49,512 nucleotides of DNA from Candidatus Omnitrophota bacterium (GTDB taxonomy: Bacteria; Omnitrophota; Omnitrophia; Omnitrophales; Aquincolibacteriaceae). The DNA lies in NCBI GenBank assembly GCA_028713205.1, contig JAQTOZ010000001.1:1-49512 (forward strand), written 5' to 3'. A model generated the notes under the pieces. The model was not told the origin of the DNA. It saw only the letters and a program-made list of their open reading frames with translations, and ran no database searches. The position numbers and the translations under genes were made by a program. This document shows, one piece after another, positions 12,102-31,104 of this stretch. Numbering within the stretch: position 1 is the first letter of the stretch; each line of letters begins with the position of its first letter.

Positions 12102-12126
12102 GCTCAGCTCCTCAAAGGACCGGGGT

Positions 12127-13146: not shown

Positions 13147-13337
13147 CTTAGCTCCGATTTACGATTAGGGCCGTTATGGAATTAGAGCCGACTATTGCCG
13201 GGCACATCAACGGCCGGTTTCAAGCGCCGCAGGCTGAAAAAGTCCAGGACATAATTGCGCGCAACAAAGGTATAATAGATCAGATCCTCGGCGGAGTCCA
13301 GAGGGCGTATCCGATAACCATGACGGAGGGAATGAGG

Positions 13338-13856
13338 ATGAAAAAGATAGTGATCGGCAGTGCTTTGTTTTTATTGGTTTTTGCGTGCCCGGATGTGCGC
13401 GGACAAGATGTTGAAGTGGAAGATACGGAAACGCTTCCCGTTCAATCCGAAGAGACGGCATTGATTTTTGGGACGGTCCTTGATGTGACGCCGGATTTTA
13501 TCCGGCTGCGTTATTATGATCAGGAAAAGGAGCTTCTCAAAGACGAGGTTTTCCAATTCGGCGAGGCCACGAAATTTGAAGATGCTTATGGCATTCAGGA
13601 CATCCGGAATGGTGATTCGGTCGAAATTGAGTATCGGACGGTCAAGGGCGAACGGGTGATCCGGTCTATCACATTGAACAAATCCAAAGGGCGGAAGGCC
13701 TCCGTCGCGAAGCCTTCTCCGGCGGTCCTTGCCAAGAGCTTGAAGAGGGCAGGTGACAAATTTTCCGGAGACGCGGTGGGCCTGGTCGCGGAAGAACTGG
13801 AAAAAGGCGAGAAGAAAGTTAACCGGGAAGATCAGGAAGTGAATAACGCGAACTGA
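13338..13856 (+). CDS. Secreted hypothetical protein (signal peptide, Lys/Glu-rich C-terminus)
   Basis: GGAGGG at 13325-13330, then ATG 13338 (ATG 13332 is also possible). MKKIVIGSALFLLVFACPDVRGQ is signal-like. No family recognised. Confidence 0.5.
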   Translation: MKKIVIGSALFLLVFACPDVRGQDVEVEDTETLPVQSEETALIFGTVLDVTPDFIRLRYYDQEKELLKDEVFQFGEATKFEDAYGIQDIRNGDSVEIEYRTVKGERVIRSITLNKSKGRKASVAKPSPAVLAKSLKRAGDKFSGDAVGLVAEELEKGEKKVNREDQEVNNAN

Positions 13857-13871
13857 GCACAAGGTGAAGTT

Positions 13872-15053: not shown

Positions 15054-15943
15054 ATCCGGTGACCGATACTGAGGTACCAATAGCCCCACAATTTATCCTG
15101 CCATAAACCGGCCGGGATCGCATGGCATACATGAAGGGCCGCTTTGCCGAGGCGTCTGTCTTGATAATGAGTGATTAATTGCGGGTATGAAAAGTTAATT
15201 TTGTTTTTGTATTCCTGACAGGCGTCTCTTAAAAAATGATCGAATGCCCACGCGTACACTTCGTTTTTTTCGATCGCAAACCTTTCTTTTAAACGGGCCC
15301 CCGCTTGTGATGGATGGATCCTGCATTTTACCAACGGCTCGGGGATGTGGCAAAAATCATACGCTTGCGAAAACTCAAACCACTTTTTCGAATCTTGAAC
15401 CAGCCGCAAATTTTCATCAAACAACCCCATCTGATCAAAGCATCTTTTGGGGATCAAAAGAGCGCACCCGTTGAGGACCCACCCCAGCATCATCGCATAC
15501 GGCAGGGCTTCCCGGGCGAAGGCTTGAACCCTTTTTTCCCCAGTGATTTTCGATTGAGGGTCCATCATATACCAATCACTGTATAAAATAATTCTGTCCG
15601 CCTGGTCCACATGGCCCCGTAAATAGCTGATTTGCGTTTCTAATTTGTTCGGCAGATAAACATCATCATGGCTCAACCACGAAAAATATTCGCCTTTCAT
15701 TTCTTTGATCGCCCAATTTAACGCGGTTGAAACACCGCCGTTTTTCTTTGGGAAATAGCGTATTTTATCGCCATAGGACAGCGCGACCGCCTCGGTCTTG
15801 CCGCCGTCATCGGACCCGTCATTGACAACGATAATCTCAAAATTCCGGTAAGTCTGTGCCAAGGCGCTGTCAATGGCCTCTTCGAGGTAGCTCTCCCCGT
15901 TATAGACGGGTATGACGATCGAAACTTTGGGATTAAATGTCAT
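15038..15943 (-). CDS. Glycosyltransferase family 2
   Basis: VSIVIPVYNG..YLEEAIDSALAQTY.NFEIIVVNDGSDD and the WLSHDD DxD-type motif. The 3' end overlaps the convergent permease by 16 nt. Confidence 0.85.
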   Translation of the reverse strand: MTFNPKVSIVIPVYNGESYLEEAIDSALAQTYRNFEIIVVNDGSDDGGKTEAVALSYGDKIRYFPKKNGGVSTALNWAIKEMKGEYFSWLSHDDVYLPNKLETQISYLRGHVDQADRIILYSDWYMMDPQSKITGEKRVQAFAREALPYAMMLGWVLNGCALLIPKRCFDQMGLFDENLRLVQDSKKWFEFSQAYDFCHIPEPLVKCRIHPSQAGARLKERFAIEKNEVYAWAFDHFLRDACQEYKNKINFSYPQLITHYQDRRLGKAALHVCHAIPAGLWQDKLWGYWYLSIGHRIHLKR

Positions 15944-15998
15944 TGGAAATATGTCCGGTATTCAAATTTTGCATCGGCTATGGAATGTCAGTCCGGGA

Positions 15999-16973
15999 TC
16001 AAACGAAATTGCCGTGTTTCATGTCCGATAACAGCGCGCCGATAAAACGATTGTATTCATCATAATAGCACCGGTCGCAAAGATGTCCATCGAACCATTT
16101 CTGTTTTTGGTAGATTTCGTCCAGCGAATCGAAATCGCCCATTTGCATGTCGGATGCAAAATCCAGGTCGTGTTTCTTTTTGGCGTATTGAACGCCGCAG
16201 CAAGGATAAATCATGCCATCCGGCCCCAGCACCGGTCTTAACAAACTGACGTAACAATGTTTTTGGCCGCGCAAATATTCTTTTCGGCCCTGATAAATGA
16301 CGAGGGAATCATCCGTGCCGCGCAGCGTCTTTTTGACGACGGCCATGGGCGGGCTTTTATCCAGGCGAAGCAGATCGCAGATGATGCGGACATGCGTAAA
16401 ATTATTTTTATTGGCGTACTCCACGAGGGCCATCAGGTTCGCCGGGTCGAAGCGGTCCGTGACCACATAACTAAAGCCCCAATCAACCTCGGGCGCTTTC
16501 CCGACGGCCCAATCGAGTGCCTTCCGGATCTGATTGACACTTTGTTCGTCCGAGCAGGAAACGCGGCACCAGGTCAGCGAACGCAGCGAAGTTTGCTTCA
16601 ATCGGTCCAAGCGCAATCCGTTTGTCGCCAGGCTGACCTCAATGCCCTTGTCGATAAAATTCATGATGAGCTCATTGATCTTGGGATACAGCAGCGGTTC
16701 CCCGCCACCCGTCAGCGTTACGGCCTTCATGCCCAGCCGTATCAGTGTTGCGGTCGCATCGATCGCTTGGGCAAAGTCCATCTCCAGGTTTTGATTTCTT
16801 TTTTTGCAGGAACAAAATGAGCATTTGAAATTACACCGGTTGGTCGGCATGAACTGTGCGTAAAGCGGGATGATTTTTTTCTGCAGGAGTACATGATCAA
16901 GGAAATTCTTGTGCTTGCACAGTTTGATCGGGAAACTGTTAACTGAAGTATAAGAAGCTTTTTGGGTATCCAT
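15999..16973 (-). CDS. Radical SAM protein (function unknown; Cys-rich C-terminal half)
   Basis: CNFKCSFC (Cx3Cx2C) followed by TLTGGGEPLLYP. Additional C-terminal cysteines (YPCCG, CDRCYY). Confidence 0.75.
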   Translation of the reverse strand: MDTQKASYTSVNSFPIKLCKHKNFLDHVLLQKKIIPLYAQFMPTNRCNFKCSFCSCKKRNQNLEMDFAQAIDATATLIRLGMKAVTLTGGGEPLLYPKINELIMNFIDKGIEVSLATNGLRLDRLKQTSLRSLTWCRVSCSDEQSVNQIRKALDWAVGKAPEVDWGFSYVVTDRFDPANLMALVEYANKNNFTHVRIICDLLRLDKSPPMAVVKKTLRGTDDSLVIYQGRKEYLRGQKHCYVSLLRPVLGPDGMIYPCCGVQYAKKKHDLDFASDMQMGDFDSLDEIYQKQKWFDGHLCDRCYYDEYNRFIGALLSDMKHGNFV

Positions 16974-16999
16974 GCGATCAAATCCTCATATCTTTTGTG

Positions 17000-18283
17000 T
17001 CATGCTCGCTCCGCAAGGATTGTCTCATACATGCGAAGGACGTTGTTGCGAATAAGGGTTTCGTCATAATGCTTTTTCACGGCCTCGGCATTGATTTGAG
17101 CGGCATGATCTACCCAAACATCATCCGTCAGTGCTTTCTGAATGGCAATGGAAATTTTCTGCGGATCCTCGGGCGGAACCAGTCGGCCATTTTCACCGTC
17201 ATGGAACCATTCGGGCACTCCCATTGTATCGGATTGTATCGGGAAGGCCCCCATCAGACATGCCTCTAAAAAAGAATTGGAGAGGCCGTCCGAAAGGCTC
17301 AGCCCGATCGAGATACGGGATCGGCCGTGTAACCGGAGCATGTCCTCATGGGAAGACTGAGGGACGATCTCAACTTTTATACCCGCTGATTGGGCTAAAT
17401 TCTGTGACGCGTTCCGGACATCCTCGTCGTGCACCGAATACAAAGCGACAGTGTATCTTTTTTGGATGATCGTTTTTGCGCATAATTGCAACGCGCGTAT
17501 CCCGAACAAGGCCCGCCCCCTCACGCCTTGATATCCTTTCAAAACAATCAGAGTCCTTTTCGAGGGCGTGGGCTCCGTGCACAATGGTTGCGCTTTGACC
17601 CAATTGTATCCGCCGCCGACCGGTTGAACCGGCAGGACTTCTTTCTCAAATCCGTATTCGCGCGACAATCGGGCATCGCGTTGGCAGTCGCACAAGAAAT
17701 AGTCGCATTTCCGCAAAATTTCTTTGACGGTTGATTCGTGCTCTGGCCAACGGCCGAAAAAATAAAGCTCATTGCCCCAGCAAGTCACGATCCACGGCGC
17801 CGTCTTTCCGTTGAGCAAATCGTATGCCCTGGAAACCAAACGGCCTCCCCGCAACATTTCCAGGGAATGGACCATGTCCGGCCTGAGCTTTCGAATCGAC
17901 TGCGCCAGCCCAAAAGTCTCGTCCCCCGAAGCCGGAAAAAGTTTCTGCATGAAATGCCGGCATTTGTTTTTTGCCTTATGAAAAAATCCGGGCGCGTTTG
18001 GAATGGGCCCATGCATCGTCACATGATTTAACAGGGGATGCGGTCCGGCTTCGTAAGAAGGGAATAGATGAACGTCCCATTTTCGGTCTTCACGTTGTTT
18101 GACCCAGCGCCCCGTGTGCACGCTGTCCGGCGGCGCAACGAATAAAATAGTTTTCTTTTTGGCCACGTTTTTAGTTATCCGTTTATCAGAGCCGTTAATA
18201 GGGGAGCAGCTTTGGCGTTTGTTTGCGATATTGCCCATAGGCGGATCGCCAGCTGCGTGAAAATATGTTAAAAAAGATACCAC
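17000..18283 (-). CDS. GT-B fold glycosyltransferase (GT4-like)
   Basis: C-terminal GT4-type block GLSNSFLEACLMGAFPIQSD...HDGENGRLVPPEDP. The track start (GTG 18283) overlaps the upstream gene by 89 nt. Alternative starts are ATG 18238 or GTG 18166 (VAKKKTILFVAPP). Confidence 0.65.
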   Translation of the reverse strand: MVSFLTYFHAAGDPPMGNIANKRQSCSPINGSDKRITKNVAKKKTILFVAPPDSVHTGRWVKQREDRKWDVHLFPSYEAGPHPLLNHVTMHGPIPNAPGFFHKAKNKCRHFMQKLFPASGDETFGLAQSIRKLRPDMVHSLEMLRGGRLVSRAYDLLNGKTAPWIVTCWGNELYFFGRWPEHESTVKEILRKCDYFLCDCQRDARLSREYGFEKEVLPVQPVGGGYNWVKAQPLCTEPTPSKRTLIVLKGYQGVRGRALFGIRALQLCAKTIIQKRYTVALYSVHDEDVRNASQNLAQSAGIKVEIVPQSSHEDMLRLHGRSRISIGLSLSDGLSNSFLEACLMGAFPIQSDTMGVPEWFHDGENGRLVPPEDPQKISIAIQKALTDDVWVDHAAQINAEAVKKHYDETLIRNNVLRMYETILAERA

Positions 18284-19055
18284 GGGAATTCAAGGCTTTG
18301 GAGGGAACTCTTCCCCAAATAAAATGGCCGCAATAAGCGCAGAGACGGAGGGTTTGATCGGACAGGTCATCCCCCTCGGGAGGGAGTGCTTTTCGTCCCA
18401 GGTCGAGTCCTACGATCCGATCAATCCCGCCGGCAATCGCGCAGCAATAATACCCGTAAGGGGTCATCCCCATGCCGCAGCAGGACCGGATTTCGCAGCC
18501 CGCTGAGTAATCGAAGAAAAGATGCGCAACATCATCACGCGGGGCATCGTTGAAAGAGATGTGCTCATAACCTTTGTTTTCCTTGCGAGTGTTTTCGATT
18601 TTATATTCTACCGGGACTTTTTTTAATGCTTCCCCGACCGCAGGACCGGACCCGTTCGTTACCACGGTCAATTTCGTATCCGGGGAGTTGCGGAGTTTGT
18701 ATTCTCTCAGGCGGTCCAGGATCTGCGAAAAATCGGGATGTAACGCCGGTTCCCCCCCCACAACCCGAATGACTTCCCACCGGCGTTTGTTGTCGATGCT
18801 CTCCTGGATAAATTTTTCGATTTGTTGCAGGCTTATCCGTTCAGGGCTCGGGGCCTGGGTGCAGGACCGATTACAAGCCGGGCATTTCAAATGGCAGAGA
18901 TAGTTGATGTCGATTTCGATTTTGCGGCAACTCGTTGTCCATTTTGCGGAAAAGATTTTGGACATAATTTTTATCTGCCGGATGAAATGGTAATAAACGA
19001 ATTTGAAAGGAGCTTGGGATGGTTGCGTTAAATGGGCATTCAGGGAAGTCGGCAT
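18195..19055 (-). CDS. Radical SAM protein (small, Cys-rich C-terminus; function unknown)
   Basis: CHLKCPAC (Cx3Cx2C) and VVGGEPALHP. Extra cysteines follow (CEIRSCCGMG, YYCCAIAGG, CAYCGH). An alternative start at MSKIF (18965) is possible. Confidence 0.6.
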   Translation of the reverse strand: MPTSLNAHLTQPSQAPFKFVYYHFIRQIKIMSKIFSAKWTTSCRKIEIDINYLCHLKCPACNRSCTQAPSPERISLQQIEKFIQESIDNKRRWEVIRVVGGEPALHPDFSQILDRLREYKLRNSPDTKLTVVTNGSGPAVGEALKKVPVEYKIENTRKENKGYEHISFNDAPRDDVAHLFFDYSAGCEIRSCCGMGMTPYGYYCCAIAGGIDRIVGLDLGRKALPPEGDDLSDQTLRLCAYCGHFIWGRVPSKALNSRGIFFNIFSRSWRSAYGQYRKQTPKLLPY

Positions 19056-19078
19056 CGGATTTTTGACGCGTCACGTGT

Positions 19079-19873
19079 TTATAAGTAGCGTTTTTGCAAG
19101 GCTCCGTATAAGGTTGAAGGATTGTATCGCTTGTTGGCATCACAAAACAATTCCTTTTTCAGGACATGGATTCGAAGCCACCGTTTCAATTTTCGTTTCC
19201 AAGGTAACTTTCGTGTCCAAAGAGTATGAAGTAAATGGATTCCGTAAGTCCCATTTTGGATTTCGTAACGAGCGCGGGGATCGACCAAAACCTGATAATG
19301 ACGGCCGTCGATCGGGCAAAAAACATCGGGGGATTTAACGTAAGACGAAAGCCCGGAACGGTGAACGGCGGCATCGATAAAAGGAGGGCCGATCTCTCCA
19401 AAGGATATGTTTTTTAAATCTTTTCCCATGCTGTCTTCATAACACCTCTTGATAACAAGATCGCCCCGGGGGGCTTTCAGGACGTTCCCGTTGCAGCAGA
19501 TTTCTTTTCCATAAATGGCCCTTTCCGATGAGATCACATAAGGTTCGGGGAAATCAAACGGTTTGAGGCAGATCTCATCCAGATCACACCAGAACCCTCC
19601 TTTGTCATAAAGTAATTTGTACCTGAATAAGTCCGAAAAACCGGTCACAAGGCCTTTCCCGAATCCTTTTCGATGTTTGAAAATATATTGCCGGGGGACG
19701 ATTTCATCAGCGTTTTTCACCACGGTGCCGTCCGGAATATCTTTTGTTTTTGCATACGTATACAGGTGATATTCATGACCGTTTGCCATGAACGATTTGA
19801 TGGACAATTGCGCCGTCAGCGGTAATCGCCGGCCGATCCATAACCCTTGAATGATTCGATTTTCCTCTAACAC
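19079..19873 (-). CDS. Glycosyltransferase with DXD sugar-binding region (Gly_transf_sug-like)
   Basis: IIQGLWIG..LP....LSIKSF...GHEYHLYTY and FSDLFRYKLLYDKGGFWCDLDEICLKPF (DLD motif). GTG start. Confidence 0.7.
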   Translation of the reverse strand: MLEENRIIQGLWIGRRLPLTAQLSIKSFMANGHEYHLYTYAKTKDIPDGTVVKNADEIVPRQYIFKHRKGFGKGLVTGFSDLFRYKLLYDKGGFWCDLDEICLKPFDFPEPYVISSERAIYGKEICCNGNVLKAPRGDLVIKRCYEDSMGKDLKNISFGEIGPPFIDAAVHRSGLSSYVKSPDVFCPIDGRHYQVLVDPRARYEIQNGTYGIHLLHTLWTRKLPWKRKLKRWLRIHVLKKELFCDANKRYNPSTLYGALQKRYL

Positions 19874-20085: not shown

Positions 20086-21741
20086 TTGGACGAACAACCG
20101 ATCAAAGTCCTTCTTTTTGAAGATGATGAGAGCTTTGCCAATATTGTGACGACCCGGCTTACCGCCGAGACCAGCGAGAAATTTGAGCTCGAAAACGTCG
20201 CCAGTCTTGCCGAAGGGATCGAGCGGCTTTGCCAGCACAAAGTCGATGTCATCCTCCTGGATTTGAATCTTCCCGACGGCCAGGGGGTCGAAAACGTCGA
20301 AAAGATCCGCCTGTATGCACCCTTAGTGCCGATTGTGATCTTCACGGGAATGGATGATGAGGACATGGCGATCCGTGCCCTGCAGAAGGGCGCCGAAGAT
20401 TATGTGGTCAAGGGGTCTGTCCCCGCCAAGTTGCTGACGCGAATCATCCTCTATGCGATCGAGCGTAACCGCATCAAACGGGATCTGGATTATGCCAAGA
20501 AGCAGCTTGAACAAATGGTCCTCATCGATCCGCTGACCGAAATACTCAATCGCCGCGGTTTGCAAGAGGCCCTCTCGCGCGAAACGATGATGCTGCGCCG
20601 TTACGGGACGAGCCTCATTTCGATGCTCATCGATCTCGATAATTTCAAAATGATCAATGATTCTCTCGGCCACAATGTCGGCGATATCATCCTGAAAGAG
20701 GTCGCGCGCGTGATCAAAGAGAAGCTGCGTTTTACGGACCACATCTCGCGTATCGGCGGCGATGAATTCCTGGCGCTGATGCCCAATACGCGTTTGGGCG
20801 AAGGACTGCGGGTGGCGGAACGTTTGCGTCTCGCGATATCTTCCGCGGTGATTTCCGTGGATTCCGGCAAGCGGGTGACCGTCACGGCCAGCATGGGGGT
20901 GATCCAGATCGGCGACGCGGATTTTACGATCGACCAGCTCTTGGCCCAGACCCATCATATGCTCAAGAAAAGCAAACAAACGGGGAAGGATTCGATCACC
21001 TATTCGGACGGTCATTATGCGATTCAGCTGGAGAAAGATAAAAAGCTCTCGGAGTTCGTCGAGGTCGTTTCGAAGGGGATGGCCTTCCATGCCTTGAAGC
21101 ATCCTATCTTTTATCTGCGCAATGAGGCCCTGGCCGGCTACGAATTTTTAAGCCGCCTGCAATTTCCGACCTTTGAAATGCCGGATGATTTTTTCCGTTT
21201 GGCGCGTGAAGCGAAGATCCTGACCTTAGTCGATCATCAATGTTTCCGGTCCTGTATCCGGGCCGGATCGGATTTGCCCAAAGACATTGTCAGTTATATC
21301 AACCTGTTGCCCTCGACCTTGATCGACATTGCCCCGGAGAAACTGCTCGAAGAGTTTCCGAAGAACCGGCCGATGAAAAACTATTGTATCGAAATCAGCG
21401 AAAAGCAAGTGATCGGAAATCCTTCTTATCTCATCGAGCCGATCAAGACGTTGAAAAAAGCGGGTCTTTCGATTGCCTTGGATGACGTCGGATTCGGACA
21501 AAGCTGCTTGGAGAGTCTGGTCATCCTGGAGCCCGATATCATGAAAATCGACCGTTCCTGGATCAACGGGATTACCCAGGACAAATTCAAATTGAAACAA
21601 GTGGAACGGCTTTTGAAAATCGCCGACAGTCTCGGGTTGGAGGTCGTCGCGGAAGGGATCGAGACACGCGAAAATCTCGAGACTTTAAAGACGATGAATG
21701 TCAAATTCGGCCAAGGCTTCCTCTGGGGCAAGCCTGCCTAA
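20086..21741 (+). CDS. Response regulator receiver + GGDEF + EAL (c-di-GMP turnover protein)
   Basis: REC domain (VILLDLNLPDGQG). GGDEF with I-site (RFTD-HISRI-GGDEF). EAL domain motifs YEFLSR, DDVGFG, EGIETRE, GQGFLWGKP. TTG start with AAAGGGG RBS at 20072-20078. Confidence 0.9.
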   Translation: MDEQPIKVLLFEDDESFANIVTTRLTAETSEKFELENVASLAEGIERLCQHKVDVILLDLNLPDGQGVENVEKIRLYAPLVPIVIFTGMDDEDMAIRALQKGAEDYVVKGSVPAKLLTRIILYAIERNRIKRDLDYAKKQLEQMVLIDPLTEILNRRGLQEALSRETMMLRRYGTSLISMLIDLDNFKMINDSLGHNVGDIILKEVARVIKEKLRFTDHISRIGGDEFLALMPNTRLGEGLRVAERLRLAISSAVISVDSGKRVTVTASMGVIQIGDADFTIDQLLAQTHHMLKKSKQTGKDSITYSDGHYAIQLEKDKKLSEFVEVVSKGMAFHALKHPIFYLRNEALAGYEFLSRLQFPTFEMPDDFFRLAREAKILTLVDHQCFRSCIRAGSDLPKDIVSYINLLPSTLIDIAPEKLLEEFPKNRPMKNYCIEISEKQVIGNPSYLIEPIKTLKKAGLSIALDDVGFGQSCLESLVILEPDIMKIDRSWINGITQDKFKLKQVERLLKIADSLGLEVVAEGIETRENLETLKTMNVKFGQGFLWGKPA

Positions 21742-21782: not shown

Positions 21783-23075
21783 TCAAATCATCTGATACGA
21801 CAGATTTTCTTCGTCCGGGGGAACCGTTTCCTTGATCTTGAGCAACGGAACGATGAAGCGCACGCCGCGCTGTTTCAAGGGTTCGATTTTACCGAGAATT
21901 TCCCGAGCGAAATTCCACGCAAAGATGATGATAAAATCCGGCCGGTGGGTTTCCAGACGGGCACTTGAGACAATCGGAATCCGTGTGCCCGGGACGAAAT
22001 GATTTTGTTTGAGCGGGTTGTCGTCGACGACATAATCGATCTGGCGAGTGTTTAACTCGCAGAAGTTGATGATGGTCGATGCCTTGGCCGGCGCGCCGTA
22101 ACCCGCGATTGACCGTCCTTCCGCCCTGATTTTTTCGATACAGGCCAACAGATCCGTTTTGACCTTCATGACTTTTCCGGCAAAGGTCCGGTAAACCTGC
22201 TCGGAATCGAATCCACGGCGTTTTTCTTCGGCGAGAAAGGCTGATACCACCGGTTCGATTTTATGACGTCCCTCTTTTTTCTTGATAAAGACCCTCAGGG
22301 AACCGCCGTGGGAGGCCACTTCCTGAATATCAAAAACCTCCATCCCGAATTGCGGCAAAAGGCGTGTCAGAGGAGTGACGGCGATATAGGAAAGATGTTC
22401 GTGGTAAATCATATCGAAATACATTTTCTCGAGCATCACCCCCAGATAAGGGAACTCGATCACAAAGATCCCGTTTTTATCCAGCAGTTCGGAAACGTTA
22501 CGGCAAACGGCATGGATGTCGTTGATATGCGCGAAGACGTTGTTGCCGCTGACGGCGTGGGCCTTGCCGAATTCGGCAAGGATGGCCGTCACACAGGCTT
22601 TATCAAAATAGCGGTTGAGTGTGCGCAGCCCTTTTTGGTTGGCTTCCTCCGCCAGATTGGTGGCCGGGTCGACGCCGACGGCACGCAGGCTTTCCTGTTG
22701 ATAGCAGGCCAGCAGGAGACCGTCGTTGCTGCCGATGTCAACCGCCAAAGGGTTCTTCGCATTTCCGAGCTTTTCCCGGACGGTGCAGGCGTAATCGGCA
22801 AAATGTTTTTGAAAGGTCTTTGTGGTGGAGCTGACGTAGAGATAATGTTTGAACATCAGATCGGGCGGAACGACATGGGTCAGTTGCACCAGATGACAGG
22901 ACGGACAAAGGGTGGTCCGGAGCGGGCACCGGAATTCTTCGTTGACGGGCGCGCTGACCGGGACATAGGAGTTGGCCAAAGCCACGGAGCCCAGATCGAG
23001 AAAGGCCGCAGGCAAAGGAGTCCTGCAATAACGGCACGTTTTTTTCAGATACTGATCGTGAGGGGGCGTGTTCAT
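21783..23075 (-). CDS. SAM-dependent C-methyltransferase of the NDP-sugar 3-C-methyltransferase (TylCIII-like) type
   Basis: N-terminal 4-Cys zinc module (CRYCRTPL...CPSCHLVQL), a class I methyltransferase core (AVDIGSNDG), and a C-terminal C-methyltransferase-type domain. Overlaps the SDR gene by 4 nt (ATGA). Confidence 0.8.
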   Translation of the reverse strand: MNTPPHDQYLKKTCRYCRTPLPAAFLDLGSVALANSYVPVSAPVNEEFRCPLRTTLCPSCHLVQLTHVVPPDLMFKHYLYVSSTTKTFQKHFADYACTVREKLGNAKNPLAVDIGSNDGLLLACYQQESLRAVGVDPATNLAEEANQKGLRTLNRYFDKACVTAILAEFGKAHAVSGNNVFAHINDIHAVCRNVSELLDKNGIFVIEFPYLGVMLEKMYFDMIYHEHLSYIAVTPLTRLLPQFGMEVFDIQEVASHGGSLRVFIKKKEGRHKIEPVVSAFLAEEKRRGFDSEQVYRTFAGKVMKVKTDLLACIEKIRAEGRSIAGYGAPAKASTIINFCELNTRQIDYVVDDNPLKQNHFVPGTRIPIVSSARLETHRPDFIIIFAWNFAREILGKIEPLKQRGVRFIVPLLKIKETVPPDEENLSYQMI

Positions 23076-23803
23076 GAATTGGGCGGTACTTCCACCGCCG
23101 TGATTTTGTTGTGACGGATAACGATATCGCTTCCGCTCGCGAGCGGGATCTCGCCATCCGCGATTTTGATGATTTTATCGGCGACAAAATCCGTACTTTG
23201 CTGTTTGACGGCGTCTTCTTCTCCGAAAAGGTCCGAGCGCATTTGGGTGTTCATGCCGCCGGGGCAGACCGTCACGCATTTCAAATCGACATCGGTGTTT
23301 TCTTTGGCAATGGCCTGGGTGAGGGCCAGGATGCCGAACTTGCTGACGGAGTATCCCGCGAGGTTCGGTACGGCCCGCTTGCCGGCCATCGAAGAGATGT
23401 TGAGAATCATGCCCTGCTTTTGGCTGCGGAAAATCGGGATGAAATATTTGCACATCAGAAAAGCCGAGATCAGGTTGACCGAAAGGTGCCGCTCGAATTC
23501 ATTCAGCGAATGGTCTTCCGTGCGCATCAACCGTCCGCCGTAACCGGCGTTGTTGATGAGGATGTCGATACGGGAGGCCTTGACCTTGAAAATCCGCACA
23601 AATTTCAGGACCTGGGATTCTTTGGTCAAATCCAAAACGTGAAATGACAAATTTTTGTGATCGGGAATCGTCGCAAGCGCGCTCTTCCAGTATTGTTGTG
23701 TCTTGCTGATACCGAAGACACGGTCTCCGGCCTGCAGAAATCTCCGGGTCAAGCTTAATCCGAGTCCCCGGCTGGCTCCTGTGATGATCACGGTTCTGGA
23801 CAT
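23072..23803 (-). CDS. Short-chain dehydrogenase/reductase (putative sugar ketoreductase)
   Basis: TGASRGLG cofactor motif, NNAG, YSVSK (YxxxK). Confidence 0.9.
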   Translation of the reverse strand: MSRTVIITGASRGLGLSLTRRFLQAGDRVFGISKTQQYWKSALATIPDHKNLSFHVLDLTKESQVLKFVRIFKVKASRIDILINNAGYGGRLMRTEDHSLNEFERHLSVNLISAFLMCKYFIPIFRSQKQGMILNISSMAGKRAVPNLAGYSVSKFGILALTQAIAKENTDVDLKCVTVCPGGMNTQMRSDLFGEEDAVKQQSTDFVADKIIKIADGEIPLASGSDIVIRHNKITAVEVPPNS

Positions 23804-23827: not shown

Positions 23828-24244
23828 CTATCGGGTCGCGACTTGTTTGAGGTTCGGATTTATATAGCCTTCCGTGACCTGAAAGGCAAAGGTATCGTTT
23901 TCATATTTGCCGTCTTCGCGTTCGCGGGTTGTCATGGCCAGGAATACCGAATCCTCGGTGAATTTCTGGGCGTGGGCAATCATCGGCGGCGTTGCGACGA
24001 TGTCCCCGGGCCGTACGCGCAGCACTTGCTTCTTTTCGGGGCTGTCCACGGCGCAGCAGTGACTTTCGTAGGCCCCGCTTACCAGATAGATGTATTGATA
24101 ATCTTCTTTGTGATAATGGTTGGCGCGTACCGACCCTTTTTTGGAGGTGATTAAGGCGACGTGCCCCAGTTTTCCTTCAAATAAGTTATAAATTTCGCCG
24201 CGTTGATCTTTGACGGCCGCGTCGATGTGTTTCAAGGTTTCCAT
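23828..24244 (-). CDS. Cupin-fold protein (sugar epimerase/ketoisomerase-like, CapF C-terminal/WbuC-like)
   Basis: 138-aa ORF with DQRGEIYNLFE...SVRANHYHKEDYQYIYLVSG...PPMIAHA cupin motifs. Operon context with sugar-nucleotide enzymes. Confidence 0.6.
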   Translation of the reverse strand: METLKHIDAAVKDQRGEIYNLFEGKLGHVALITSKKGSVRANHYHKEDYQYIYLVSGAYESHCCAVDSPEKKQVLRVRPGDIVATPPMIAHAQKFTEDSVFLAMTTREREDGKYENDTFAFQVTEGYINPNLKQVATR

Positions 24245-24264: not shown

Positions 24265-25677
24265 TTAAAAGTTAAATTCACGGAACCATTTGATGGTCCG
24301 GACAAGCCCTTCTTCGAGCGGATAACGGGGTTTGAATCCCGTGACCTTGGTCAGCTTGGAGATGTCCGGGCAACGTCTTTTGGGATCGGCGCTGGCATAC
24401 ACGGTGTGAGGCGGATCGATATTGACGACGTCGACCTTGTAAGGCATAAACTCCGCAACCATCGCTCCCAGATCCTTGACGGAAATTTCGGGTGCGGGAT
24501 TGCCGATATTGAAGGCCTCTCCGTTTGCCTTTGAAAAAAGCACTTTGAAAAGCGCTTCGAGCGCGTCATTGATGTAACAAAACGAGCGCGTGTTTTTCCC
24601 TTCGCCGTGAATCGGGAGGGGCTCTTTCCTTAAGGCATGTTCGATGAAATTGGGGAGCACCCGATAATCATCGGGACGGATGCCGGGTCCGTAGACGTTA
24701 AAAGGCCTCACCATTTTGACCGGTACGTTGAACACCTTCCAGTAAGTCATGCACATCGTTTCCCCGAAACGCTTGGATTCATCGTAACAGGAACGCGGTC
24801 CCAAAATGGAGACATTCCCATAGTAATCTTCTTTCGTGGGGACATGTTTCGGGTCGGGATCGCCGTAAACTTCGCTTGAACTTGTGAAAAGGAAACTTTT
24901 CACGTTTTTGATGCGCGCAAGTTCCAGCATGTTGCGTGTCCCCAGCGTTCCGACATCCATGGTCTCGATGGGATATTTGGTGTAATAGACCGGGGAAGCG
25001 ATGCCGGCGGCATGAATCAGATAGTCAATCGGCTCATCCGTGCTAAAGGGCTTGACCACGTCTGCACGGTAAAACGCCAGATTTTCATCCGAAATGACGC
25101 GTTGTTCATAGCCTGTGACAAAATTATCGAGGAGCAGGGCCTTGGCCTTGCGGCTGAGAACGTTCTCATTCAAATATTTGAGAAGGAAGACCATGTAGCG
25201 GCCGAGAAAACCAAAAGCACCCGTGATCAGGAAAGTCTTTCCCGCGAAGAGGTGATAATAACCGTCGAGGCTTTTGGCGAGTTCCTTGATATCTTCGGTG
25301 ATGACCTTGGAAGTGGCCAATTCGCCGAGGCTGTTTCGCTTGGGCGCCCCGGCCGTTTTCGGTTTTGCGGGGGATTTCACCGGAGATTGGAGCGGTTCGG
25401 CTTTGGGTTCCTGCTTTTGCGGTATTGCTACCGTGGAGGCTTGGCCCGGCTGTTGCTTCGCCAGCGCGGTTTGTACCGCTTTTAAATCATCATCCAGCTC
25501 ATCGATCAGTCCGAGGTTGATATAACTTTTGATGACTTGTTGATAACCCATATCGCCTTTTTTCTCGGCAACTTTGCGCAACTTTGAAATGGTCTCTTTC
25601 GGGATGCGCATCGAAATGAGTTTGGTCCCCGAACCTTTATCTTGTTTTGGATCTTCTGATTTTTTATTTTTGGCCAT
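24265..25677 (-). CDS. UDP-glucuronate decarboxylase-like extended SDR fused to an N-terminal ribbon-helix-helix (BrnA/CopG-like) domain
   Basis: Residues ~17-60 read KLISMRIPKETISKLRKVAEKKGDMGYQQVIKSYINLGL (RHH strand-helix-helix with GYQxxI motif). A Pro/Lys-rich linker follows, then the Rossmann motif ITGAFGFLGRY and YDESKRFGE (YxxxK) in a UXS-like pattern. AAGGAGG RBS upstream of ATG 25677. Confidence 0.8.
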   Translation of the reverse strand: MAKNKKSEDPKQDKGSGTKLISMRIPKETISKLRKVAEKKGDMGYQQVIKSYINLGLIDELDDDLKAVQTALAKQQPGQASTVAIPQKQEPKAEPLQSPVKSPAKPKTAGAPKRNSLGELATSKVITEDIKELAKSLDGYYHLFAGKTFLITGAFGFLGRYMVFLLKYLNENVLSRKAKALLLDNFVTGYEQRVISDENLAFYRADVVKPFSTDEPIDYLIHAAGIASPVYYTKYPIETMDVGTLGTRNMLELARIKNVKSFLFTSSSEVYGDPDPKHVPTKEDYYGNVSILGPRSCYDESKRFGETMCMTYWKVFNVPVKMVRPFNVYGPGIRPDDYRVLPNFIEHALRKEPLPIHGEGKNTRSFCYINDALEALFKVLFSKANGEAFNIGNPAPEISVKDLGAMVAEFMPYKVDVVNIDPPHTVYASADPKRRCPDISKLTKVTGFKPRYPLEEGLVRTIKWFREFNF

Positions 25678-25733
25678 GAAGGGCCTCCTTTAATAAAACG
25701 GAAATAGTGACGCCTTTGCCGGTCGTACAGGTT

Positions 25734-25828
25734 TTTGTATATACGGTCATGGAATTAAGGCGAAACAGGTGTATTTGTATATACAAATAGCGCTTTTGTC
25801 AAGCTTTTTTTGCTAGCGTATATACAAA
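25734..25828. promoter_or_regulatory. Three phased GTATATAC-core palindromic operator candidates
   Basis: TTTGTATATAC at 25734-25744; perfect 16-bp palindrome ATTTGTATATACAAAT at 25773-25788; GTATATACAAA at 25818-25828. Core centres are 40 and 41 bp apart. Confidence 0.5.
25773..25802 (-). promoter_or_regulatory. Sigma-70-like promoter of the RHH-decarboxylase operon, overlapped by the central palindrome
   Basis: On the minus strand there is a perfect TTGACA (plus coordinates 25797-25802). TATACA / TACAAA -10 candidates at 15-17 nt spacing lie inside the 25773-25788 palindrome. Confidence 0.45.
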
Positions 25829-25924: not shown

Positions 25925-26305
25925 TCAGACGCCGAGGATTTTGTGGATTTCTTCGACGAGCTTTTCGATGTCAAAGGGTTTGGTGATATAACTGTTGGCG
26001 CCGATGACTTTACCGATGATGCGATCGACCTCGCCGATTTTTGCCGTGACCATGATAATCGGTGTTTGAGAGAAGATCTCATCGTCGCATTCGCGGATCG
26101 CTTTGCAGACTTCCTCACCGGAGAGTTCGGGGAGCATCAGGTCCAGGATGATCAAATCAGGCCTTTTTTCCCGTGCCTCCCGCAAACCGGCTTCGCCGTC
26201 GTGGGCGGTCAGGACCTCAAACCCGATTTTTCTGAGACGAAAGGAGAGCAGTTTGGTAATGTCCAATTCATCTTCAATGATAAGGATTTTTCTGCCGTTC
26301 GTCAT
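25925..26305 (-). CDS. Single-domain CheY-like response regulator
   Basis: 126-aa ORF with KILIIEDE...PDLIILDLMLPELSGEEV...ITKPF receiver motifs. Confidence 0.9.
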   Translation of the reverse strand: MTNGRKILIIEDELDITKLLSFRLRKIGFEVLTAHDGEAGLREAREKRPDLIILDLMLPELSGEEVCKAIRECDDEIFSQTPIIMVTAKIGEVDRIIGKVIGANSYITKPFDIEKLVEEIHKILGV

Positions 26306-27418: not shown

Positions 27419-29053
27419 TTAACTGATACTGCCGGAATAAGGAGATACCTTTTTGTTTTTGGCGTCTTCCTCGTCCTTGTTCTTCGCCTTTTCACTGACG
27501 GCGCATTCCGTCGTAATGAAAAGTCCGGCAATGCTGGAAGCGTTTTCGATCGCCGAGCGTACCACTTTGGCCGGATCAATCACGCCTTGTTTCACAAGGT
27601 CATCGAATTCGCCGGTCTCGGCGTTGTATCCGAAAGCGCCTTTGCCTTCCAAAACGGTTTTGACGATCACCGAACCGTCAACGCCCGCATTTTCCGCGAT
27701 CTTGCGGCAAGGTTCCTGAAGCGCGCGGCGCACAATCTGCGCGCCGGTGGCCTCATCGCCTTCGAGTTTGAGCTCATGGAGTGCGGCAATGGATCGTAAA
27801 TAAGCGACGCCGCCGCCGGGGACAATGCCTTCATCTGCGGCCGCGCGGGTCGCGTGAAGGGCATCTTCCATTCGAGCCTTCTTCTCTTTCATCTCGACTT
27901 CCGTGGCTGCTCCGACTTTAATGACGGCGACACCCCCCGAAAGTTTTGCCAGACGCTCTTGCAATTTTTCCTTATCGTATTCGGAATCAGATTTATCAAT
28001 CTGCGCCCGGATCTGATCGCAGCGTGCCTTGATGTCTTTTTGCGAACCTTCCCCGCTGATGATGGTGGTATTGTCTTTATCGATCACGATACGCTGGGCC
28101 TTTCCGAGAACGTTGACCTCCAAATTCTCGAGTTTGAGCCCGAGGTCTTCGGAGATGAACTTTCCTTTGGTGAGGATGGCAATATCATCCATCAGGGCCT
28201 TGCGGCGGTCACCGAATCCCGGTGCTTTGACCGCGGCGATCTGAAGGACACCGCGTATTTTATTGACGACCAACGTTGCCAACGCTTCGCCTTCGAGGTC
28301 CTCGGCGATTAACAGCAATGGTTTACCGAGGCGCGCGACTTTCTCAAGCAAAGGAACCAGTTCCTTGACCGCCGAGATCTTCTTTTCAAAAAGAAGAATG
28401 AACGGCTCTTTGAGAACGACTTCCATGCGTTCGGTGTCGGTGACAAAATAAGGCGAAATGTAACCACGGTCGAATTGCATCCCCTCCACGAAATCAAGCG
28501 TGGTTTTCGTGGTGTTGGATTCTTCCACGGTAATGACACCGTCTTTGCCGACCTTCTCGATGGCTTCGGCGAGCATTTTGCCGATGGTGGAATCTCCGTT
28601 GGCGCTGATCGTCCCGACGGCCTCGATCTCATGTTTGTCCTTCACGGGTTTCGCGAAGCCCTTCACGATCTCGACCACTTTGGCCGCGGCCTTGTCGATC
28701 CCGCGTTTGAGTGCCATCGGATTCGCGCCCGCCGTAACGTTTTTCATTCCCTCCGTCACGATCGCATGCGCGAGCACGGTGGCGGTGGTTGTCCCGTCGC
28801 CGGCTTGATCGGATGTTTTTTCGGCGACTTCGCGGACCATCTGAGCCCCCATATTTTCATACGGGTCCTTGAGGTCAACTTCCTTTGCGACGCTGACGCC
28901 GTCTTTGGTAATCGTCGGCGCTCCGAATTTGCGGTCAATGACGACATTGCGGCCGCGGGGTCCCAGAGTCACGGTGACCGCACGTGCCAGAATGTCGATG
29001 CCGCGTTTCAGCCGCCGGCGCGCCTCTTCTGAATAGGATATTTGTTTTGCCAT
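27419..29053 (-). CDS. groL: Chaperonin GroEL paralog 2 (no GGM tail)
   Basis: Full-length GroEL pattern ([12 protein letters not shown], etc.). ATG 29053 with AAGGAG RBS; the track start at 29059 is a TTG two codons upstream. The C-terminus [23 protein letters not shown] replaces the Gly-Gly-Met repeats. Confidence 0.95.
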
Positions 29054-29092
29054 AAGCAACTCCTTTATCTATGAATTTTAGGTCCGCCGGAT

Positions 29093-29386
29093 TTATTCGA
29101 CGATTGCCAGGACTTCGGTTTCTTTGACAATTTTGTGTTTTTTGCCATCGATCGTGATCTCATCTCCGGAGTATTTGCCGAAAAGAATGCGATCGCCTTT
29201 TTTCACTTCCAAAGGCTGAACTTTTCCCGACTCAAGGACTTTGCCGGGTCCGACCGCAACGACCTTCCCCTCCGCTTTTTCTTCCTTGGCGGTGTCCGGA
29301 AGAATGATGCCGCCTTTGGTCACTTCCTCGGCTTCAAGAACTTCGACAAGAATTTTGTCACCCAAAGGTTTAATTTTTGTTGCCAT
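29093..29386 (-). CDS. groS: Co-chaperonin GroES
   Basis: 97-aa ORF [36 protein letters not shown]... with the canonical GroES pattern. Confidence 0.95.
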   Translation of the reverse strand: [97 protein letters not shown]

Positions 29387-29433
29387 GTTTGAATCTCCTT
29401 TTGATTAGTTTAAATTGATGTTGTGCTTGGGTT

Positions 29434-31104
<1,671 letters not shown>

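What the first reader, a model, noticed from the sequence alone, without database searches (positions are those of the whole stretch)
24265..25677. Sugar-nucleotide decarboxylase/epimerase-type SDR fused to a ribbon-helix-helix DNA-binding domain (possible trigger enzyme)
The 470-aa ORF has a normal UXS/ArnA-like extended SDR body from about residue 147 (ITGAFGFLGRY ... YDESKRFGE). It starts with ~60 residues that read as a BrnA/CopG-type RHH: KLISMRIPKETISKLRKVAEKKGDMGYQQVIKSYINLGL. A ~60-residue Pro/Lys/Gln-rich linker joins them, with no Met in between, so this is one polypeptide and not two genes. Enzyme-RHH fusions that autoregulate their own pathway are known (PutA is the classic case). 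I do not know of one for a nucleotide-sugar enzyme. The gene is first in a four-gene sugar cassette and lies directly downstream of palindromic operator-like sites.
Basis: partly seen in the sequence, partly recalled or inferred. Interest (0 to 1): 0.65.

Follow-up and report, generated by a model that had tools for sequence, protein, structure and literature searches.

The report
Sugar enzyme fused to antitoxin-type repressor
The first enzyme of a four-gene sugar-modification operon carries a small DNA-binding domain borrowed from a toxin-antitoxin system, and its exact binding-site-like palindrome sits on the operon's own promoter in every genome that has the fusion, so the enzyme very probably represses its own operon.

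Summary
ORF 24265-25677 (-) encodes one 470-aa protein. It has a Lys-rich tail, a ribbon-helix-helix (RHH) core of the BrnA/CopG_antitoxin type (PF12441), a roughly 60-aa disordered linker, and a UXS-like extended SDR with all catalytic residues intact.

The fusion is not a frameshift. At least 54 protein clusters and 19 GTDB genomes, all or nearly all Candidatus Omnitrophota, carry it. They form one clade nested among unfused orthologues that sit in the same four-gene operon.

The main new result concerns the palindrome GTATATAC:
- It occurs three times in the 49.5-kb window (0.12 expected), and all three copies lie upstream of this gene.
- All 19 other fusion loci have 2-3 exact copies next to a fixed TTGACA. 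One copy lies over the -10 element. The next lies 21-22, 30-32 or 41-43 bp downstream.
- None of the 58 unfused loci has a copy near the gene.
- The closest stand-alone relatives of the RHH are BrnA antitoxins in BrnT-BrnA operons, and their promoters carry the same palindrome in tandem.

Best reading: an antitoxin RHH and its operator were co-opted to make the enzyme an autorepressor of its operon, as in PutA. DNA binding and any metabolite control remain untested. I rate it a new variant of a known kind, with interest about 0.6.

The parts
24265..25677 (-). Complete gene for the 470-aa RHH-linker-SDR fusion protein.
   Evidence: ORF list. There are 54 long-form homologue clusters covering 95-100% of its length.
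25624..25677 (-). Residues 1-18: a Lys-rich, disordered basic N-terminal arm.
   Evidence: In 55 long forms the tail is 12-39 aa with a mean net charge of +5.2. pLDDT is below 50.
25507..25623 (-). Residues 19-57: the ribbon-helix-helix core. Predicted strand KLISMRIP, helix 27-40, G-x-GYQ turn, helix 45-55.
   Evidence: PF12441 hits in 33 of 33 family members. AlphaFold2 helices at 27-40 and 45-65 or 45-55. I21, S22, R24, L33, A37, Y45, Q46, I49 and K50 are invariant.
25324..25506 (-). Residues 58-118: a flexible linker rich in A, K, P and Q.
   Evidence: Residues 75-116 have pLDDT below 50. Linker length varies from 20 to 61 aa among orthologues. Composition.
24265..25323 (-). Residues 119-470: UXS-like extended SDR enzyme body, with GxxGxxG at 153-159, S267/E269, Y298/K302 and R364.
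   Evidence: PF01370 at E 2e-45. The best PDB match is human UDP-glucuronate decarboxylase 2b69, E 1.2e-58. These residues are invariant in 58 sequences. Short-form orthologues start here.
25684..25690 (-). Shine-Dalgarno sequence AAGGAGG, 6 nt spacer before the ATG.
   Evidence: Read directly from the sequence.
25737..25744 (.). Operator O2: GTATATAC in the 5' leader, 67 nt before the ATG.
   Evidence: An equivalent second site lies 21-43 bp downstream of O1 in all 19 other fusion loci.
25777..25784 (.). Operator O1: TTTGTATATACAAA, an 18-nt perfect palindrome (25772-25789) that overlaps the -10 region.
   Evidence: It lies 10-12 nt after TTGACA in 20 of 20 fusion loci.
25818..25825 (.). Operator O3: an extra GTATATAC copy upstream of the -35 element.
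   Evidence: L001 and L002 also have a third copy.
25797..25802 (-). The -35 hexamer TTGACA.
   Evidence: Read from the sequence. It is present at the same distance from O1 in all 20 fusion loci.
25774..25779 (-). Probable -10 hexamer TACAAA with a 17-nt spacer (TACAAT in most orthologous loci), lying inside or abutting O1.
   Evidence: Inferred from the alignment of 20 promoters. The simple consensus scan did not call it, because position 6 is A rather than T.
23828..24244 (-). Second operon gene: a cupin, similar to WxcM/FdtA-type sugar isomerases or epimerases.
   Evidence: Pfam Cupin_2, FdtA and Polysacc_synt_C hits. It follows the SDR gene in long- and short-form loci.
23072..23803 (-). 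Third operon gene: a classical SDR, a probable keto-reductase.
   Evidence: adh_short at E 6e-45. Position conserved.
21783..23075 (-). Fourth operon gene: a sugar C-methyltransferase with a Zn-binding N-terminal domain, a SAM methyltransferase domain and a Methyltransf_14 C-terminal domain.
   Evidence: PF08484 at 4e-54 and PF08421 at 1e-16. It is conserved, and it is also linked to the SDR in distant phyla.

Best explanation
The gene encodes a bifunctional protein. Its C-terminal part is an active UXS-like nucleotide-sugar SDR that carries out the first step of a four-gene sugar-modification pathway (extended SDR, cupin, classical SDR, C-methyltransferase). The product is probably a C-methylated, decarboxylated or deoxy sugar.

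The N-terminal part is a BrnA-antitoxin-type ribbon-helix-helix domain, joined to the enzyme by a disordered tether of 20-60 residues.

Proposed mechanism (inferred, not shown):
1. Two N-termini pair into an RHH dimer.
2. The beta-ribbon of that dimer (L20/S22/R24 face) reads the palindrome TGTATATACA.
3. One site (O1) overlaps the -10 element of a strong TTGACA promoter. A second site (O2) lies two, three or four helical turns downstream in the leader. This window has a third site upstream of -35.
4. Occupying these sites blocks RNA polymerase, so the enzyme represses its own operon. This is negative autoregulation, as in PutA or in a type II antitoxin.
5. The dimeric SDR body probably supplies the oligomerisation that lets distant sites be bound cooperatively.

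Origin (inferred): the RHH and its operator were taken together from an Omnitrophota BrnT-BrnA toxin-antitoxin module, in a single event.

Shown computationally: the architecture, its conservation, the family assignment, the operator's conservation and its exclusive association with the RHH.

Not shown: DNA binding itself, repression, cooperativity, and any modulation by UDP-sugar or NAD(H).
For: (1) Real, selected fusion. Fifty-four long-form clusters are 425-475 aa long with the same tail-RHH-linker-SDR layout. The RHH residues are invariant or nearly so, while the tail and linker are free to vary.

(2) RHH identity. All 33 aligned N-termini match PF12441 (best E 1e-9), and a few also match RHH_1, Arc, RHH_10 or BrnA_antitoxin. 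A profile of the N-terminus finds 1044 representatives at E<=1e-3, nearly all stand-alone proteins of 60-160 aa. The three I traced with DNA sit directly after a BrnT_toxin gene. AlphaFold2 gives an extended segment followed by two helices at the expected positions. The Foldseek top hits are RHH proteins (CdbA, CopG, Arc, NikR), although none is significant.

(3) Operator. GTATATAC occurs three times in the window, all within 90 bp upstream of the gene, against 0.12 expected. All 19 fusion loci from GTDB genomes have 2-3 exact copies within about 100 bp upstream. The 58 unfused or distant loci (636 kb) have 2 copies in total, and neither is near the gene. Across 42 sites the 8-mer is invariant and the flanks are diverged.

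(4) Fixed promoter geometry. The layout is TTGACA, then 10-12 nt, then GTATATAC(AAT), in 20 of 20 loci. The O1-O2 spacing falls into three classes, 21-22, 30-32 and 40-43 bp.

(5) Independent link between this RHH subfamily and the motif. Three different BrnT-BrnA promoters carry tandem GTATATA[C/T] copies 10-11 bp apart, next to TTGACA. The BrnTA complex is known to bind and repress its own promoter (PMC5086665, citing Heaton et al. 2012).

(6) No other candidate binder. Only the four operon genes are conserved among the 20 fusion loci, and the flanks differ. The RHH never occurs as a separate gene in unfused loci.

(7) The enzyme is intact. GxxGxxG, S/E, YxxxK and the Arg that aligns to the conserved Arg of the UXS1 QTRAF motif are invariant. 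The fusion occupies the same operon slot as the unfused enzyme.
Against: - There is no direct evidence of DNA binding.
- The window protein's own PF12441 score is below Pfam's gathering threshold.
- The monomer AlphaFold2 model of the N-terminus has only moderate confidence (pLDDT 66), and no structural match reaches significance.
- A profile search against PDB sequences found only marginal Arc hits, E about 1.
- The fusion clade is monophyletic. The 20/20 versus 0/58 association therefore reflects one origin, not many independent events. Its weight comes from strict conservation of the 8-mer against diverged flanks.
- O1-O2 spacings of 21-43 bp are larger than the 8-11 bp typical of cooperating RHH dimers, so how the sites cooperate is unknown.
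- Linker length does not track operator spacing.
Confidence: 0.78

Rival explanations
1. It is a true trigger enzyme. DNA binding by the RHH is switched by the catalytic domain's ligand state, for example UDP-GlcA or the product bound, or NAD+ versus NADH. The operon would then be induced when substrate is available or repressed when product accumulates. This extends the best explanation rather than excluding it.
For: The catalytic residues and the NAD motif are fully conserved next to the DNA-binding domain. The tether is retained in all members although its sequence is free to vary. PutA is a precedent in which an RHH-enzyme fusion is an autogenous repressor (PMC5293562). A semi-conserved I-G/A-T-P motif in the linker of 21 of 55 members could be a docking element.
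Against: Nothing in the sequence data speaks to ligand control. Simple concentration-dependent autorepression explains all the observations. The window protein lacks the I-G-T-P linker motif.
Confidence: 0.3
2. The SDR domain is only a sensor or an oligomerisation scaffold, that is a pseudo-enzyme as in NmrA-type SDR-fold regulators. On this view the protein is essentially a dedicated transcription factor.
For: SDR-fold proteins that act purely as regulators exist (NmrA, from my own knowledge). The protein is the only DNA-binding component conserved with the operon.
Against: All UXS catalytic residues and the GxxGxxG motif are invariant. The SDR part is 71-76% identical to the unfused enzymes. 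It occupies the same first position in the same operon as the unfused enzymes, and the fusion loci hold no second copy that could supply the activity.
Confidence: 0.07
3. The RHH module has a role that does not involve DNA, such as a dimerisation handle or a relic antitoxin that neutralises a BrnT-like toxin encoded elsewhere. The GTATATAC sites would then be bound by some other factor, or would simply be promoter elements.
For: The module's closest relatives are BrnA antitoxins. RHH domains are obligate dimers.
Against: The fusion lacks the N-terminal segment (D-F-D/E-x-x-K region) that stand-alone BrnA proteins have before the RHH, and retains only the DNA-binding core. No BrnT gene is conserved near the fusion. 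The same palindrome appears in BrnTA promoters of the same RHH subfamily. That is what is expected if the RHH itself reads it. Exact repeated palindromes at phased spacing are not explained by promoter function alone.
Confidence: 0.08
4. The fusion is an artefact: an assembly or sequencing frameshift, or a missed internal start, has joined two separate genes (a small RHH gene and the SDR gene).
For: None was found. Only weak candidates for internal starts exist, GTG at V100 and TTG at L120.
Against: The same uninterrupted frame is present in 19 independent MAGs and in at least 54 protein clusters from many samples. The linker length varies in multiples of whole codons. Neither internal candidate start has an SD-like sequence. 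No locus has the RHH as a separate gene next to the SDR.
Confidence: 0.02

Closest known systems
PutA (trifunctional proline utilization A)
   Same: An N-terminal RHH domain is fused through a linker to a catalytic body. The enzyme acts as an autogenous repressor by binding several short operator sites in its own promoter region (PMC5293562).
   Different: The enzyme here is an NAD-dependent extended SDR of nucleotide-sugar metabolism, not a flavoenzyme and aldehyde dehydrogenase. The RHH belongs to the BrnA/PF12441 antitoxin lineage. The operator is the palindrome GTATATAC. PutA's redox and membrane switch has no evident counterpart, and no ligand switch has been shown.
BrnA antitoxin of BrnT-BrnA type II toxin-antitoxin systems (PF12441/PF14384)
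   Same: The RHH core is 59-64% identical to stand-alone Omnitrophota BrnA-like proteins. It has the same predicted DNA-reading strand, KLISIR(I/L)P. The same GTATATAC-type sites lie at a TTGACA promoter. BrnTA represses its own promoter (PMC5086665).
   Different: There is no BrnT partner and no BrnA N-terminal segment. The domain is covalently joined to a metabolic enzyme and controls a sugar operon. The operator copies are 21-43 bp apart, against 10-11 bp in the toxin-antitoxin promoters.
UDP-glucuronate decarboxylase (UXS1) / ArnA C-terminal domain
   Same: It has the extended SDR fold. The best solved match is human UXS1 (E 1e-58). The Ser/Thr-Glu, Tyr-x3-Lys and Arg residues aligned to the UXS1 motifs STSEV, YDEGK and QTRAF, and the NAD motif, are conserved.
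   Different: All NCBIfam equivalog scores are far below their cut-offs, so the substrate and product are unassigned. Compared with the aligned UXS1 core, which starts at query residue ~150, it has an extra ~30-residue helical N-terminal segment (residues ~120-147). It is also genetically linked to a C-methyltransferase, a cupin and a classical SDR, which points to a 4-keto intermediate being passed on rather than simple UDP-xylose synthesis.
Other enzyme-repressor fusions (BirA, NadR) and 'trigger enzymes'
   Same: One polypeptide combines catalysis in a pathway with transcriptional control of that pathway.
   Different: Those proteins use helix-turn-helix domains, and their co-repressor logic has been demonstrated. 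Here the DNA-binding fold is RHH and the effector logic is unknown. This comparison rests on my own knowledge, not on a tool result.

Membership tests
Ribbon-helix-helix superfamily, PF12441 CopG_antitoxin (BrnA-like) | Significant match to the family profile. | tested here: met
   The window protein alone is sub-threshold (22 bits against 28). All 33 aligned N-termini match at E<=0.01, the best at 1e-9. Seven orthologues carry a precomputed PF12441 hit. The reciprocal profile search retrieves proteins annotated as PF12441.
Ribbon-helix-helix superfamily, PF12441 CopG_antitoxin (BrnA-like) | A beta-strand, helix, turn (G-x-S/T/N-like), helix topology that forms an intertwined dimer. | tested here: inconclusive
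   AlphaFold2 monomer models give an extended stretch at 19-26 and helices at 27-40 and 45-55 or 45-65, at pLDDT 52-76. The Foldseek top hits are RHH proteins, but with E>3. A dimer could not be modelled with these tools.
Ribbon-helix-helix superfamily, PF12441 CopG_antitoxin (BrnA-like) | Sequence-specific binding to repeated or palindromic operator sites. | not testable with these tools
   The evidence is indirect only. Invariant GTATATAC sites are associated with the domain in two unrelated operon types.
BrnT-BrnA type II toxin-antitoxin system | An adjacent BrnT (PF04365) toxin gene that forms an operon with the antitoxin. | tested here: not met
   Only the four sugar genes are conserved around the fusion. 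BrnT is present next to the stand-alone relatives but not here.
Extended SDR (NAD-dependent epimerase/dehydratase, PF01370) | Profile match above threshold, the GxxGxxG NAD motif, and the catalytic Ser/Thr with YxxxK. | tested here: met
   155.6 bits against a cut-off of 20.9. G153, G156, G159, S267/S268, Y298 and K302 are invariant in 58 sequences.
UDP-glucuronate decarboxylase (UXS) / 4-keto-pentose-forming decarboxylases | The UXS-specific Glu and Arg in addition to the SDR triad, and decarboxylation of UDP-GlcA. | tested here: inconclusive
   E269 and R364 align with the Glu of STSEVYG and the Arg of QTRAF in 2b69 and are invariant. NCBIfam equivalog scores are well below their cut-offs. 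The activity cannot be tested here.
Trigger enzyme / PutA-like autoregulatory enzyme | The enzyme carries a DNA-binding domain, and its own promoter carries the cognate sites. | tested here: met
   The architecture is shown. Operators overlap the -10 element and lie in the leader in 20 of 20 loci.
Trigger enzyme / PutA-like autoregulatory enzyme | The regulatory activity is switched by the substrate, product or cofactor state of the enzyme. | not testable with these tools
   No data. This needs binding assays with and without UDP-sugars and NAD(H).

The most novel reading that the evidence does not exclude
An Omnitrophota lineage took the DNA-binding core of a BrnA toxin-antitoxin antitoxin, together with its operator, and welded it to a nucleotide-sugar decarboxylase-type SDR. 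The result would be a one-component sensor-enzyme whose occupancy of the GTATATAC operators depends on UDP-sugar or NAD(H) state. That would make it the first nucleotide-sugar 'trigger enzyme', only the second kind of RHH-enzyme repressor after PutA as far as I know, and a clear case of toxin-antitoxin parts being domesticated for metabolic control.
Probability: 0.3. Interest if true: 0.78.

Novelty: new variant of a known kind. Interest (0 to 1): 0.6.

Why it matters
Enzyme-repressor fusions are rare and instructive, because one protein links metabolic flux to transcription. PutA is the only well-studied case with an RHH domain.

This locus offers a second, unrelated case with an unusually clean and testable design:
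- a defined 8-10 bp palindrome;
- a fixed promoter geometry;
- natural controls, namely sister lineages with the same operon but no RHH and no operator;
- an identifiable evolutionary source, BrnA antitoxins that use the same site.

It also gives a handle on gene regulation and on surface-sugar biosynthesis in Omnitrophota, a phylum known almost entirely from metagenome-assembled genomes (all loci retrieved here are MAGs). The RHH and operator pair is compact and portable, so it could be useful as a synthetic-biology part. If ligand control exists, it would be a natural biosensor for a nucleotide sugar.

Tried and rejected
- **Metagenome scan for operator pairs.** I scanned for TGTATATACA-N11-33-TGTATATACA to define a regulon. 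It was uninformative.
- **Profile of the N-terminus against PDB sequences.** Only marginal Arc hits, E about 1.
- **Foldseek with the 66-residue monomer model.** The right kind of hits, but no significance.
- **DNA around the stand-alone relatives P0001 and P0127.** Not retrievable. The P0130 contig is too short to show a promoter. Longer contigs (P0272, P0139, P0138) solved this.
- **Linker length against operator spacing.** No relationship.
- **Known RNA element in the leader.** No Rfam match at E<=1.
- **Internal translation start that would give a separate enzyme.** No ATG, and no GTG or TTG preceded by an SD-like sequence.
- **A separate RHH gene, or another conserved regulator, near the fused or unfused loci.** None.
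- **The upstream CheY-like gene (25925-26305) as the operator binder.** Rejected. It has a receiver domain only and is not conserved next to the operon.
- **Literature searches for an RHH-SDR or RHH-epimerase fusion.** Nothing relevant was found in the held library. One search call failed on syntax.
Full report
**1. The observation**

The ORF at 24265-25677 on the minus strand exists as described. It is 470 aa and starts at an ATG preceded by AAGGAGG.

Pfam places an extended-SDR domain at residues 150-392 (PF01370, E 2e-45; PF16363 over 150-459). It gives a sub-threshold CopG_antitoxin hit (PF12441) at residues 18-53, scoring 21.6 bits against a cut-off of 28, with E 4e-4 on the isolated N-terminus. 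NCBIfam gives only weak BrnA, ORF56 and LexA-regulated-protein hits for the N-terminus. No equivalog reaches its cut-off for the enzyme part.

Residues 59-118 are rich in A, K, P and Q. Between M43 and M162 the only alternative start codons are GTG at V100 and TTG at L120, and neither has an SD-like sequence upstream.

Downstream, on the same strand and with only short gaps, lie a cupin (23828-24244), a classical SDR (23072-23803) and a sugar C-methyltransferase (21783-23075).

Upstream, GTATATAC occurs at 25737, 25777 and 25818. These are the only three copies in the 49.5-kb window. The expected number is 0.12, and none of 100 shuffles reached three. The middle copy is the centre of an 18-nt perfect palindrome.

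**2. The fusion is real and conserved**

A search with the whole protein returned 54 clusters of 425-475 aa that cover 95-100% of the query at 61-95% identity. Nearly all of those that carry a name are from Candidatus Omnitrophota. After them come many orthologues of 350-366 aa that align only from about residue 113-120 onward, at 71-76% identity.

The alignment shows a common layout in the long forms:
- a basic tail of 12-39 aa, with a mean net charge of +5.2;
- a strongly conserved core, KLISIRIPxxxIxxLRxVAxxKGxxGYQQLIKxYIxxGL;
- a linker of variable length (20-61 aa) and variable sequence;
- the enzyme.

I21, S22, R24, L33, A37, Y45, Q46, I49 and K50 are invariant across the N-termini.

In a scan of one genome per GTDB species, 19 loci carry the long form and about 40 Omnitrophota loci carry the short form. 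In each long-form locus the RHH and SDR lie in one uninterrupted frame. A frameshift or gene-calling artefact is therefore excluded.

**3. What the N-terminus is**

All 33 aligned N-termini hit PF12441 at E<=0.01, the best at 1e-9. A few also hit RHH_1, Arc, RHH_10 or BrnA_antitoxin.

A profile of the N-terminus, searched against 1.84 billion representative proteins, found 1044 relatives at E<=1e-3. Most are stand-alone proteins of 60-160 aa with the RHH at about residues 35-88. The apparent hits of 128-266 aa at the top of the list are truncated copies of the fusion.

The stand-alone relatives that I could trace to DNA lie directly after a BrnT_toxin gene and before a DUF6941 gene. One further member of these clusters, for which I did not fetch DNA, is annotated as Candidatus Omnitrophica. 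The relatives are therefore BrnA-type antitoxins. Their RHH cores are 59-64% identical to the window's core.

AlphaFold2 on the N-terminus, and on the whole protein, predicts an extended segment at 19-26 and helices at 27-40 and from 45 onward. That is the RHH order of elements, at moderate confidence, as expected when an obligate dimer is modelled as a monomer. The Foldseek top hits are RHH proteins (CdbA, CopG, Arc, NikR, MatP) but are not significant. A profile search of PDB sequences gave only marginal Arc matches, in the correct register.

In the full-length model, residues 75-116 have pLDDT below 50, and the enzyme body from about residue 121 is mostly modelled with confidence, apart from a few low-confidence segments.

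**4. What the enzyme is**

The best solved relative is human UDP-glucuronate decarboxylase (2b69, E 1.2e-58). Other nucleotide-sugar SDRs follow, and ArnA is a weaker match.

The GxxGxxG motif (153-159) is invariant in 58 sequences. So are the Ser and Glu of SSSEVYGDP, Y298 and K302 of YDESKR, and R364, which aligns with the Arg of the UXS1 QTRAF motif.

The same four-gene cassette (extended SDR, cupin, classical SDR, C-methyltransferase) follows both the long and the short forms. In distant phyla the C-methyltransferase still sits next to the SDR.

I infer that the SDR produces a 4-keto nucleotide-sugar intermediate, which is then isomerised or epimerised, C-methylated and reduced. The exact sugar is unknown.

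**5. The operator**

This is the key new result. Every one of the 19 other fusion loci has 2-3 exact GTATATAC copies within about 100 bp upstream of the start codon. The 58 unfused or distant loci (636 kb) contain two copies in all, each more than 3.5 kb from the gene. A scan of 29 short-form upstream regions that allowed one mismatch found one site, at -171.

Across the 42 sites the 8-mer is invariant. T precedes it in 33 of 42 and A follows it in 37 of 42, so the consensus is TGTATATACA. The positions further out are essentially random.

The geometry is fixed. A perfect TTGACA is followed after 10-12 nt by the first site, so a 17-nt spacer puts the -10 hexamer (TACAAT in most loci, TACAAA here) inside or abutting the site. 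The next site lies 21-22, 30-32 or 40-43 bp further on, in the leader, and often abuts the SD (GTATATACAAGGAG). These three spacing classes correspond to about two, three and four helical turns.

The short-form loci have a different conserved promoter and leader (...TATAATcacaactcattttt) and no such palindrome.

**6. Is the RHH the factor that reads the site?**

Three arguments support this.
- Only the four operon genes are conserved among the 20 fusion loci, and the flanks differ. The RHH is therefore the only DNA-binding domain that travels with the operator.
- The RHH profile finds no separate copy in any unfused locus.
- Independently, the promoters of BrnT-BrnA operons that encode the closest stand-alone relatives carry the same motif in tandem, 10-11 bp apart, next to TTGACA:
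  - L207: TTGACAatatacGTATATACgtGTATATAC;
  - L202: TTGACgtGTATATAtaatGTATATAC;
  - L205 and its duplicates: TTGACAaatcGTATATAtatcaTATATAC.

The BrnTA complex is known to bind and repress its own promoter (PMC5086665, citing Heaton et al. 2012). The predicted DNA-facing strand residues (L/S/R of KLISIR) are the same in the fusions and in these antitoxins.

The caveat is that an NJ tree of the SDR domain alone places all long forms in one clade, nested among short forms. The fusion and the operator therefore arose once. The 20/20 versus 0/58 contrast is one evolutionary event that has been maintained by selection. It is not twenty independent ones.

**7. Mechanism**

The best-supported reading is negative autoregulation. 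RHH dimers formed by the N-termini bind TGTATATACA at O1 (over the -10 element) and O2 (in the leader), plus O3 in this window, and block transcription of the four-gene operon. The dimeric or oligomeric SDR body and the long tether could allow one oligomer to hold two sites on the same face of the helix.

This is the PutA principle (PMC5293562), built from different parts.

Whether UDP-sugars or NAD(H) modulate binding, which is the 'trigger enzyme' in the strict sense, is open. I put it at about 0.3.

The alternatives are listed with the evidence against them. They are a pseudo-enzyme sensor, a non-DNA role for the RHH, another factor binding the sites, and an artefact. None fits the data as well.

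**8. Novelty and score**

Searches of the held literature found no description of an RHH fused to an SDR or nucleotide-sugar enzyme. Database records call these proteins simply 'NAD-dependent epimerase/dehydratase family protein'.

The kind of system, an enzyme with an RHH that represses its own operon, is known from PutA. The enzyme class, the antitoxin origin of the domain, the co-transfer of the operator and the phylum are new. I therefore rate it a new variant of a known kind, with interest about 0.6.

It comes with natural controls and a sharply defined DNA site, which makes it easy to test.

Noticed in passing
window 27419-31089 (-): There are two full-length GroEL genes (551 aa at 29434-31089, and 546 aa at 27419-29059 with a TTG start) with GroES (29093-29386) between them. 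The order groEL-groES-groEL on one strand is unusual.
   Followed up: no
L026-L062 (short-form loci), about 60-110 nt upstream of the SDR start: Many unfused Omnitrophota loci share a different conserved promoter and leader, (t)tgaat..ctaatacacc...gcTATAATcacaactcattttt. This suggests the unfused operon has its own conserved control element of unknown nature.
   Followed up: partly
Linker of long-form orthologues (alignment A1, columns matching window residues ~95-105): Twenty-one of 55 long forms have a semi-conserved L-x-E-x-L-x-x-I-G/A-T-P motif in the otherwise variable linker. The window protein lacks it. It could be a docking or processing site.
   Followed up: partly
L205 86-1201; L207 324-1428; L203/L204; L206 2014-2825: The stand-alone relatives sit in three-gene modules, BrnT toxin, BrnA-like RHH and DUF6941. 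This suggests that DUF6941 is a third component of these toxin-antitoxin loci.
   Followed up: no
L206 ~1712-1760 compared with L207 240-324: L206 encodes the same BrnA protein as L207, but the TTGACA and double-operator segment and the start of brnT are replaced by a short unrelated stretch. This looks like a natural promoter and toxin-start deletion variant.
   Followed up: no
L081-L200, e.g. L152 18-581: Pairs and arrays of TGTATATACA also occur in many AT-rich metagenome contigs that have no RHH-SDR gene, several from the same sample series. L152 has at least six pairs in tandem. What they are is unknown.
   Followed up: partly
window 10980-19873 (-): A glycan-biosynthesis region lies nearby. 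It holds a DegT-type aminotransferase, three or four glycosyltransferases (GT2, GT4 and one with a DXD motif) and two radical-SAM proteins. These are possible users of the sugar made by the operon. A response-regulator-GGDEF-EAL gene (20086-21741, + strand) separates the region from the operon.
   Followed up: partly
window 25925-26305 (-): A stand-alone CheY-like receiver protein is encoded immediately upstream of the operator region. It has no DNA-binding domain and is not conserved next to the operon in other genomes.
   Followed up: yes
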